IMG/VR virus record: IMGVR_UViG_2974623408_000001
Span: 32,001-96,000 of that record
Reading direction: 5' to 3' (one strand)
Origin: a virus
Lineage: Duplodnaviria; Caudoviricetes
DNA: 64,000 nt
Shown: positions 49,414 through 49,760 of the stretch, piece after piece
Layout of the letters: each line of letters begins with the position of its first letter
How positions within the stretch are numbered: position 1 is the stretch's first letter
Translations under genes and position numbers: made by a program
Notes under the pieces: model-generated
What the model saw: only the letters and a program-made list of their open reading frames with translations
What the model was told of the DNA's origin: nothing
Database searches by the model: none

Positions 49414-49760
49414 GACAGTCATTCACAACGACAACACATTTAAGATCCACAGTCAGTTTAAACGCGTGACTCGTTTTGCCATTAAACTATCCGGCCACGT
49501 GGAGGCCGGAGCAAGACTCGAACTTGCATGGGTCACGTAAGGTGCTGTGATCAGTCGATTTGCCATTTACTGTCGGTTGCTTGAGATTAGAGCGATAACT
49601 TCAATTTCATGTCTTGGCCGTTGCCTCTACCGTTGGGCTACCCCCGCATGTGGTGCAGGGGGCTGGATTCGAACCAGCACTGTACAGCGTTGACTCACAT
49701 TGAGTTTCAATCTGAATCTCTGTGTGGCTATGGCCACACCATCCGGTGCTCAACCGGAAA
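49414..49760 (-). ncRNA. structured RNA with two circularly permuted tRNA-like domains (49617-49688 and 49466-49536); ends approximate
   Basis: Each domain: T arm, acceptor 3' strand, NCCA plus 3-nt linker, acceptor 5' strand, TA, D arm, closing stem. Confidence 0.75.

What the first reader, a model, noticed from the sequence alone, without database searches (positions are those of the whole stretch)
49587..49719. Six-nucleotide-periodic tracts flanking the Leu-like permuted domain
Seen: upstream of domain 1 the strand reads AGATTC AGATTG AAACTC AATGTG AGT; downstream it reads ATG AAATTG AAGTTA TCGCTC TAA (49610-49587). The hexamer period gives alternating polar/hydrophobic codons (R F R L K L N V S, and a mini-ORF M K L K L S L stop), often Leu, beside a tRNA-Leu-like domain. 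These tracts lie where the anticodon loop would be and are not complementary to each other. Inference: repeated binding sites for an oligomer of the upstream protein, or an mRNA-like module as in two-piece tmRNA.
Basis: partly seen in the sequence, partly recalled or inferred. Interest (0 to 1): 0.7.

Follow-up and report, generated by a model that had tools for sequence, protein, structure and literature searches.

The report
Six-base repeats form tRNA-mimic stem
The six-base repeats are real and conserved from phages to several bacterial phyla, but they are not a hidden peptide message: they are the two strands of one long, regularly mismatched RNA stem that carries a tRNA look-alike, in an apparently undescribed RNA that follows a gene of unknown function (DUF7873).

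Summary
The window is a Gordonia phage close to Phendrix. All features lie on the minus strand, just after a 244-aa DUF7873 gene.

The tracts read as quoted. Identity at a shift of six bases is 0.63 in the 5' tract (P=0.0002) and 0.42 in the 3' tract (P=0.04). Across 71 homologous loci it is 0.60 and 0.42, against 0.25 for shuffles.

The repeat unit is A-R-N-Y-U-S, and its reverse complement gives the same pattern.

They extend the stem that replaces the anticodon arm of a YrlA-like, back-to-front tRNA mimic. In nine relatives the tRNA-like head is replaced by a plain hairpin, yet both tracts remain and still pair.

The mini-ORF is not conserved (2 of 71), so the tmRNA-like reading fails.

The "repeated protein-binding sites" reading is plausible but unproven:
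- U and A are near-invariant every six bases.
- Several mismatches are conserved.
- The motif recurs in the gene's own leader; here an exact 11-mer lies beside the ribosome-binding site.

Nothing shows binding, and the protein is mildly acidic with no fold match.

This scan has flagged the same RNA, and these repeats, in other genomes. I found no Rfam family or paper describing it.

The parts
49808..50542 (-). DUF7873 gene, 244 aa. ATG at 50542 with SD AAGGAG at 50552-50547. The mechanical 263-aa GTG ORF that reaches 50599 is too long.
   Evidence: Pfam PF25283, E=3e-101. Identical to Phendrix gp144. Coordinates checked.
50556..50566 (-). Leader copy of the repeat: AUUGAAACUCA, 3 nt upstream of the SD, identical to 11 nt of the 5' tract.
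   Evidence: Exact 11-mer found only at 49701-49711 and 50556-50566 in the 64-kb window.
50590..50618 (-). Promoter-like site TTGACA-17-CATCAT ahead of the gene.
   Evidence: Consensus scan only.
49722..49739 (-). Hairpin GUGUGGC-CAUA-GCCACAC directly 5' of the 5' tract. A hairpin holds this position in most relatives (for example GCGCG-AGGA-GCGC).
   Evidence: Fold; flank listing of 108 loci.
49695..49720 (-). 5' hexamer tract: G AGAUUC AGAUUG AAACUC AAUGUG A, four A-R-N-Y-U-S units. It is the 5' strand of the periodic stem.
49679..49688 (-). GCUGU (3' strand of the anticodon-stem equivalent) plus ACAGU (variable-loop equivalent).
   Evidence: Pairs with ACGGC at 49621-49617. At least 4 contiguous bp at this junction in 59 of 71 relatives; mean 4.18 against 2.92 +/- 0.12 with partners shuffled.
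49641..49678 (-). T arm (49678-49662), acceptor 3' strand CCCCUGC, loop ACCA-CAU, acceptor 5' strand GCGGGGG.
   Evidence: 99% of cells paired, with many compensatory changes in 71 sequences.
49617..49640 (-). U8-A9, D arm GCCCAACGGUAGAGGC, A26, and ACGGC (5' strand of the anticodon-stem equivalent).
49583..49610 (-). 3' hexamer tract AUG AAAUUG AAGUUA UCGCUC UAAUCUC, the 3' strand of the periodic stem. It holds the family-wide UCGCUC unit. The AUG..UAA mini-ORF is fortuitous.
49443..49551 (-). Second permuted tRNA-like module (YrlA-like), directly 3' of the periodic stem.
   Evidence: Rfam YrlA RF02553, 38.2 bits, below the gathering score of 69, E=1.4e-5. Partial hit to model R1. Pattern scan.

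Best explanation
The two tracts are the two strands of one stem about 24 bp long. This stem extends the anticodon-stem equivalent of tRNA-mimic module 1, in a roughly 300-nt non-coding RNA transcribed after the DUF7873 gene.

The 6-nt period comes from four A-R-N-Y-U-S units per strand. The unit is its own reverse complement in pattern. Facing units therefore pair with two-fold symmetry: A1-U5', R2-Y4', Y4-R2', U5-A1', S6-S6'. The central N3/N3' is usually a purine-purine mismatch. The result is a helix with a non-canonical pair about every six base pairs (shown or well supported).

Inferred: this regular array is a docking platform for a protein that reads the repeat, most likely several copies of DUF7873. 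One to three copies of the same unit next to the ribosome-binding site of DUF7873 in phage versions would let the protein repress its own translation when free of the RNA.
For: Period and motif:
- Lag-6 identity is 0.60 (5' tract) and 0.42 (3' tract) in 71 loci, against 0.25 for shuffles. A1 is 99% conserved, Y4 100%, and U5 86-100% in each unit.

Pairing:
- 20 bp in the window's minimum-energy fold.
- 79.6% of cells pair in the family register against 20-39% when slid. Double changes number 79 against 47 +/- 9 in shuffles, 0 of 500 reaching the observed value.
- Tract-only duplex energy is -15.0 kcal/mol for cognate pairs, -12.9 for non-cognate and -8.9 for shuffled; cognate is better in 53 of 71.
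- Nine relatives have a plain hairpin in place of the tRNA-like head, yet keep both tracts, which still pair (model R1 hits; folds).

Constraint beyond pairing:
- A24/C176 is a mismatch in 65 of 71 sequences.
- Purine-purine mismatches are conserved at 19:181 and 12:189.
- UCGCUC is conserved.

Link to DUF7873:
- Full-length model R1 hits lie on the gene's strand in 79 of 80 bacterial and about 60 of 80 viral loci. All but L023 and L040 sit directly after the gene.
- No Ro60/TROVE gene in this phage, nor in 3 of 5 host-type genomes tested.

Leader copies:
- The exact 11-mer occurs only in the 5' tract and next to the SD.
- In 70 viral leaders there are 39 motif hits in 30 loci, against 9.9 +/- 3.1 in shuffles (maximum 22 in 1000).
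Against: - There are no binding, expression or processing data.
- Most of the pairing is explained by the conserved make-up of the columns (76.8% in shuffles against 79.6% observed), so covariation is modest. 15-31 of 71 cells fail at several pairs.
- In some phage relatives (L099, L092) the tracts pair poorly.
- DUF7873 is mildly acidic (pI 5.3-6.5).
- Bacterial leaders show no clear enrichment. The motif at codons 3-5 there is what any Lys-Leu-Asn tripeptide encodes.
- The loci examined are the closest relatives of the query protein, so the linkage figure is biased upward.
Confidence: 0.5

Rival explanations
1. Structural or processing stem only. The periodic, mismatch-studded duplex closes module 1. 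It serves RNA stability, or is cut by a double-strand RNase such as RNase III to release the modules from the mRNA. No protein reads the repeat.
For: - The tracts pair and sit at the base of the module.
- The stem is about two helical turns long, the usual size of a double-strand RNase substrate (established knowledge).
- M. smegmatis YrlA and YrlB are processed from one precursor (PMC4201824).
- DUF7873 is acidic and has no RNA-binding fold match.
Against: - Near-invariant A and U every 6 nt and conserved mismatches across phyla are more than a stem needs.
- It does not explain the copies of the motif in the gene's leader.
Confidence: 0.27
2. Single-stranded docking sites. The tracts stay unpaired in the particle, and each hexamer is held by one protein subunit, as in proteins that read evenly spaced short motifs on single-stranded RNA.
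For: - The same-sense motif lies on both flanks and in the leader, where it has no partner strand.
- Pairing is weak in some relatives (L099 -4.1 kcal/mol).
- Covariation is modest.
Against: - 80% of cells pair in one register against 20-39% when slid.
- Cognate tracts pair better than non-cognate ones.
- Headless variants keep the two tracts as the arms of one hairpin.
Confidence: 0.12
3. An mRNA-like module. The tracts encode a short tag peptide read by ribosomes, as in two-piece tmRNA.
For: - Permuted order: T arm, acceptor 3' strand, CCA, then acceptor 5' strand.
- A G3-U70-like pair in this phage's acceptor stem.
- An AUG..UAA mini-ORF at 49610-49587.
Against: - AUG plus a nearby in-frame stop occurs in 2 of 71 relatives.
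- G3-U70 is not conserved.
- The open frames follow from the repeat unit itself.
- The tracts persist without a tRNA-like head.
- No hit to the tmRNA or permuted-tmRNA models at this locus; a standard tmRNA lies at 52631-53159.
Confidence: 0.02

Closest known systems
YrlA (Y RNA-like A, Rfam RF02553) with Ro60/Rsr, especially M. smegmatis YrlA/YrlB (Chen et al. 2014, PMC4201824)
   Same: - tRNA-like module with T arm, D arm and an acceptor stem closed by a loop.
- The 5' and 3' ends form a stem where the anticodon arm would be.
- A 7-bp acceptor stem, as in M. smegmatis YrlA, which is cut by RNase P and receives CCA.
- Two tandem RNAs on one transcript.
- Occurs in actinobacteria and their phages.
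   Different: - No Ro60/TROVE gene in the phage; the neighbour is DUF7873.
- Module 1 gives no Rfam hit, and module 2 scores 38 bits against a gathering score of 69.
- No GNCGAA motif.
- The closing stem is built of four palindromic hexamer units, a feature I did not find in the parts of the YrlA paper that I read (term searches).
Two-piece (permuted) tmRNA
   Same: Permuted order of the tRNA-like halves, with an encoded CCA followed by the 5' acceptor strand.
   Different: - No conserved tag frame, resume codon or stop.
- No match to the permuted-tmRNA model at this locus.
- The phage has its own one-piece tmRNA.
RNA-binding proteins that read evenly spaced short repeats and repress their own mRNA (for example TRAP with spaced GAG/UAG triplets, or ribosomal proteins with rRNA-mimic sites in their leaders). 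From my own knowledge; analogy only.
   Same: Several evenly spaced copies of a short motif in the main RNA target, plus a few copies at the translation start region of the protein's own gene.
   Different: Here the repeats are base-paired and two-fold symmetric. The protein is unrelated and unstudied, and binding is not shown.

Membership tests
YrlA / bacterial Y RNA (RF02553) | tRNA-like domain (T arm, D arm, loop-closed acceptor stem), with the RNA ends forming a stem in place of the anticodon arm | tested here: met
   Core helices are 99-100% paired with compensatory changes in 71 sequences. The proximal stem is supported.
YrlA / bacterial Y RNA (RF02553) | Scores at or above the Rfam gathering threshold (69 bits) | tested here: not met
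   Module 1 gives no hit at E<=1. Module 2 scores 38.2 bits. No YrlA hit at gathering threshold in 16 related loci.
YrlA / bacterial Y RNA (RF02553) | Encoded within about 4 kb of a Ro60/Rsr (TROVE) gene on the same strand | tested here: not met
   No TROVE match in the complete 122.6-kb phage genome. Absent in 3 of 5 bacterial genomes with the locus; in the one of the two others whose coordinates could be compared (L024's genome) it lies about 7.7 Mb from the locus.
YrlA / bacterial Y RNA (RF02553) | GNCGAAN0-1G motif near the 5' end (proposed Rsr contact) | tested here: not met
   Absent on reading 49760-49560. Module 2 has AAUCGAC and its relatives GAUCGA(A/C)C, which are similar but not the motif.
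Two-piece tmRNA | Conserved tag reading frame with a stop codon downstream of the tRNA-like domain | tested here: not met
   In-frame AUG plus a nearby stop in 2 of 71.
Two-piece tmRNA | Match to the tmRNA or permuted-tmRNA covariance models | tested here: not met
   No hit at 49440-49760. RF00023 hits 52631-53159 instead. ARAGORN gives no call here.
Permuted tRNA gene (functional tRNA after processing) | Anticodon stem closed by a 7-nt anticodon loop | tested here: not met
   The stem continues into the hexamer tracts and the RNA ends; there is no anticodon loop.

The most novel reading that the evidence does not exclude
The palindromic hexamer stem is the assembly platform of a Ro60-independent tRNA-mimic particle. 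Several DUF7873 subunits dock at 6-bp intervals on the mismatch-marked helix. The same hexamers in the gene's leader give translational feedback. The stem, not the tRNA-like head, is the indispensable part.
Probability: 0.3. Interest if true: 0.75.

Novelty: new variant of a known kind. Interest (0 to 1): 0.6.

Why it matters
Bacterial Y-like tRNA mimics are known only as partners of Ro60.

Here the same RNA architecture is tied to a different, unstudied protein family. That family has thousands of members in soil bacteria and in phages of Gordonia, Arthrobacter, Rhodococcus, cyanobacteria and enterobacteria.

The hexamer stem is the best-conserved part of that RNA. It gives a concrete, cheap handle for experiments:
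- a 50-nt hairpin with four defined repeat units to test for binding;
- point mutations that keep pairing but change the invariant U and A;
- a natural leader site to test for feedback.

If binding is shown, this would define a second kind of tRNA-mimic ribonucleoprotein. It would also help explain why phages carry the RNA inside their tRNA arrays.

Tried and rejected
- Antisense pairing of the 3' tract with the DUF7873 leader: cognate -15.0, non-cognate -14.7, shuffled -15.7 kcal/mol. No excess, so rejected.
- RNAalifold on the MAFFT alignment found only the tRNA-like core, not the flank helix. The flank register came from per-sequence folds and was then counted.
- A fixed-offset count of the proximal stem failed because the variable loop is 4-7 nt long. 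It was redone with flexible offsets.
- DUF7873 function:
  - No hit in PHROGs, PADLOC or NCBIfam.
  - PDB by sequence gave only E about 0.1.
  - Foldseek gave no hit with E<=0.001.
  - The VIA-align wide search gave a best match of 3kdq (Z 8.0, rmsd 8.6, unknown function), within the noise range.
  - The ESM Atlas returned only DUF7873 clusters.
- Neighbouring genes in bacterial loci are not conserved (WD40 protein, sigma-54 activator, histidine kinase, luciferase-like, glutamine synthetase).
- Genome-wide enrichment of the double-hexamer pattern in the window: 15 matches against 10.3 expected, not significant. The signal is local.
- Sequencing runs: no RNA holder listed.
Protein self-association and further contexts could not be tested.
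- Papers: no paper holds 'DUF7873'. Searches on Y RNA and tRNA-like RNAs gave only the Ro60 literature.
- Distant phages (Vibrio D472, Rhizobium TM16): no full model hit. Six-base periodic tracts with other units are present but were not analysed further.

Full report
**What the window is**

ARAGORN finds 30 tRNA genes on the minus strand between 43.8 and 53.3 kb. Rfam adds a standard tmRNA at 52631-53159. The region of the finding is 96.8% identical to Gordonia phage Phendrix, and the genome is a complete 122.6-kb phage record. All features below lie on the minus strand.

**The observation**

Read on the minus strand, the locus has this order:
- DUF7873 gene, 50542-49808, 244 aa (Pfam PF25283, E=3e-101)
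- two hairpins, 49757-49743 and 49739-49722
- the 5' tract G-AGAUUC-AGAUUG-AAACUC-AAUGUG-A (49720-49695)
- GCUGU and ACAGU
- a T arm (49678-49662)
- acceptor strand CCCCUGC, the loop ACCA-CAU, and acceptor strand GCGGGGG
- UA and a D arm (49638-49623)
- A, then ACGGC
- six bases
- the 3' tract AUG-AAAUUG-AAGUUA-UCGCUC-UAAUCUC (49610-49583)

So is the statement that the tracts lie where an anticodon loop would be. GCUGU and ACGGC form the anticodon-stem equivalent, and the tracts continue outward from it.

The period is not chance. Identity at a shift of 6 is 0.63 in the 5' tract (shuffles 0.26, P=0.0002) and 0.42 in the 3' tract (P=0.04).

**Relatives**

The DUF7873 protein has thousands of relatives (6533 hits). 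I fetched:
- 80 bacterial loci: Actinomycetota, Sorangium/Polyangiaceae, Chloroflexota, Blastocatellia and Armatimonadota
- 80 viral contigs
- loci from cultured phages

A simple pattern scan found one or two permuted tRNA-like modules just after the gene in 139 of 164 loci. The median distance from the stop codon is 93 nt, and the second module lies about 148 nt further on.

I aligned 71 distinct copies of module 1 with their flanks (A2).
- The T arm, 7-bp acceptor stem and D arm are 99-100% paired, with many compensatory changes.
- The proximal stem has at least 4 contiguous pairs in 59 of 71. The mean is 4.18, against 2.92 +/- 0.12 when partners are shuffled.

A covariance model built from A2 (R1) finds a full-length copy on the same strand as the gene in 79 of 80 bacterial loci and about 60 of 80 viral loci. 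In L023 and L040 it lies about 2.4 kb downstream; elsewhere it follows the gene directly. It also scores 75 bits in Gordonia phage Ronaldo, and weakly (31-38 bits) in Klebsiella, Ralstonia and Pseudanabaena phages. In the window it finds only this locus.

**The period is conserved**

In the 71 sequences, lag-6 identity is 0.60 in the 5' tract and 0.42 in the 3' tract, against 0.25 +/- 0.01 for shuffles. Lag-12 is 0.575.

The 5' tract consists of four units of A-R-N-Y-U-S followed by an A. In the first unit A is 99% conserved, Y 100% and U 100%; U is 86-96% in the later units.

The 3' tract is AAACUC-AGAUUC-UCGCUC-(C)AGACUC-AGCAUU in consensus. Its third unit, UCGCUC, is conserved and deviates from the pattern.

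**The tracts pair with each other**

The reverse complement of (ARNYUS)n is (SARNYU)n, which is the same periodic pattern. Two same-looking tracts can therefore form a duplex.

- In this phage the minimum-energy fold pairs them over 20 bp (z = -2.9). A duplex fold gives the same result.
- In the family, per-sequence folds agree on one register. In unit terms this is A1-U5', R2-Y4', Y4-R2', U5-A1' and S6-S6'.
- Counted on the alignment, 79.6% of cells pair in that register, against 20-39% when the partner is slid by 1-3 columns.
- Shuffling partners among sequences still gives 76.8%, so most of the pairing comes from the conserved motif itself. The excess is small but consistent: 79 double changes against 47 +/- 9, and a covariation score of 0.211 against 0.174, with 0 of 500 shuffles reaching either value.
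- Tract-only duplex energies are -15.0 kcal/mol for cognate pairs, -12.9 for non-cognate and -8.9 for shuffled. Cognate is better in 53 of 71 (p=2e-7).
- A few phage relatives (L099, L092) pair poorly.

The strongest argument comes from natural variants. In nine loci the tRNA-like head is replaced by a plain hairpin, while both tracts are kept and pair as the arms of one stem-loop. Four were folded: L052, L072, L082 and L097. The other five (L043, L059, L061, L077, L084) give short hits spanning the full model. The stem is thus a unit of its own, and it is retained in lineages that have lost the tRNA mimic it carries.

**More than a stem**

A plain helix tolerates any compensatory change. Here A and U recur nearly invariantly every six bases, and several mismatches are themselves conserved:
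- A24 opposite C176 in 65 of 71 sequences
- purine opposite purine at 19:181 and 12:189
- pyrimidine opposite pyrimidine beside UCGCUC

The helix therefore carries a non-canonical pair roughly every six base pairs, within a two-fold symmetric sequence context. This is the kind of pattern expected for recognition by a protein, possibly a symmetric oligomer. That is inference.

**The motif recurs at the gene's own start region**

In this phage the 11-mer AUUGAAACUCA occurs exactly twice in 64 kb: in the 5' tract (49711-49701) and 3 nt upstream of the Shine-Dalgarno sequence of DUF7873 (50566-50556).

In 70 distinct viral leaders (positions -75 to -16), the pattern ARNYUNAR occurs 39 times in 30 loci. 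Composition-matched shuffles give 9.9 +/- 3.1, with a maximum of 22 in 1000.

In bacterial loci the only regular copy lies at codons 3-5 (AAG CUG AAC). Any Lys-Leu-Asn tripeptide encodes it, so it is not independent evidence.

An antisense explanation fails. The 3' tract is no more complementary to its cognate leader than to non-cognate leaders or to shuffles. A shared recognition motif, with feedback on translation, fits better, but it is not shown.

**The coding reading**

The alternation of polar and hydrophobic codons follows from the unit: ARN gives Lys, Arg, Asn or Ser, and YUS gives Leu or Phe.

Only 2 of 71 relatives have both an in-frame AUG and a nearby stop around UCGCUC. The G3-U70-like pair of this phage's acceptor stem is not conserved. 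No tmRNA model matches here, and the phage has an ordinary tmRNA elsewhere. The stem also survives without a tRNA-like head. I reject the mRNA-like reading.

**Comparison with the known**

The closest described RNAs are the YrlA-type bacterial Y RNAs bound by Ro60/Rsr. M. smegmatis YrlA is the closest of these. It has a 7-bp acceptor stem, is cut by RNase P and receives CCA in vivo, and is made in tandem with YrlB (PMC4201824).

The architecture is shared, but membership fails on three tested features:
- the Rfam score (module 1 no hit, module 2 38 bits against 69)
- linkage to a TROVE gene (none in the phage; none in 3 of 5 bacterial genomes, and about 7.7 Mb from the locus where the coordinates could be compared, L024's genome)
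- the GNCGAA motif (absent)

The partner candidate, DUF7873, has no family, defence-system or structural match that stands above noise. It is mildly acidic, which weighs somewhat against simple RNA binding. No paper in the library mentions it.

**Earlier notes of this scan**

The DUF7873 RNA has been flagged in at least 132 other genomes. The hexamer repeats were followed up at least three times, with two readings: 'evenly spaced docking sites' and 'two strands of one mismatch-studded stem'. A third note pointed to leader copies of the motif.

I tested each claim on this window and on my own set of loci. Both main points hold, and they are compatible. A later check recorded there priced the protein-RNA partnership at only 22 in 100, because linkage was weaker in a broad census. 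My linkage figures come from the closest relatives and are biased upward.

**Verdict**

- The tmRNA-like option is refuted.
- The protein-docking option is the best available mechanism but remains inference.
- Confidence: about 0.85 that the tracts are the paired arms of one stem; about 0.45 that they are read by DUF7873; 0.5 overall.

Noticed in passing
L052:4775-4900, L082:4812-4932, L072:4760-4908, L097:3778-3900 (also L043, L059, L061, L077, L084): 'Headless' variants. The first tRNA-like module is replaced by a plain GC-rich hairpin, while the hexamer stem and the second module are kept.
   Followed up: partly
window 44542-44577 (-): A third T arm plus a 7-bp acceptor stem closed by ACCAU (GCCAG UUCGACA CUGGU CACCUGC ACCAU GUGGGUG), between tRNA-Val and tRNA-Thr. 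It is also in Phendrix, with loop AUCAU. It has no D arm and no DUF7873 neighbour, and model R1 does not hit it.
   Followed up: no
acceptor-closing loops of all modules: The loop starts with N-CCA in 51 of 88 viral modules but in only 28 of 134 bacterial ones. This suggests cutting before G1 to leave a tRNA-like CCA end, as in M. smegmatis YrlA, with CCA encoded mainly in phages.
   Followed up: partly
window 52631-53159 (-): A 529-nt tmRNA found by Rfam (90 bits) but not called by ARAGORN. It has large insertions relative to the model.
   Followed up: no
window 49443-49551 (-) and relatives: Module 2 has its own conserved flank motifs: GAUCGA(A/C)C on the 5' side and YUUAAACG on the 3' side. 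In folds they face each other as an internal loop of its closing stem. The 5' motif resembles, but does not match, the proposed Rsr contact GNCGAA.
   Followed up: no
L023:7185-7348 and L040:7183-7346: In two Nocardia loci the RNA lies about 2.4 kb downstream of the DUF7873 gene instead of directly after it, as if something had been inserted between them.
   Followed up: no
L171:2026-2060 (Vibrio phage D472); L170:2051-2080 (Ralstonia phage phiRSL1): Distant DUF7873 loci also carry six-base periodic tracts after the gene, but with other units (ACAAAC/UAAAAC/UCAAAC; GCGUUA). D472 gives no hit to model R1.
   Followed up: no
L053:633-3776 (-): In a Ktedonobacteraceae genome a 1047-aa sigma-54 activator with PRD and EIIA domains lies divergently upstream of DUF7873. 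This recalls RtcR control of the Salmonella rsr-yrlBA-rtcBA operon, but it is a single case.
   Followed up: no
window 49808-50599 (-): The mechanical ORF list starts the gene at a GTG (263 aa). The SD-led ATG at 50542 gives the 244-aa protein found in relatives and annotated in Phendrix.
   Followed up: yes
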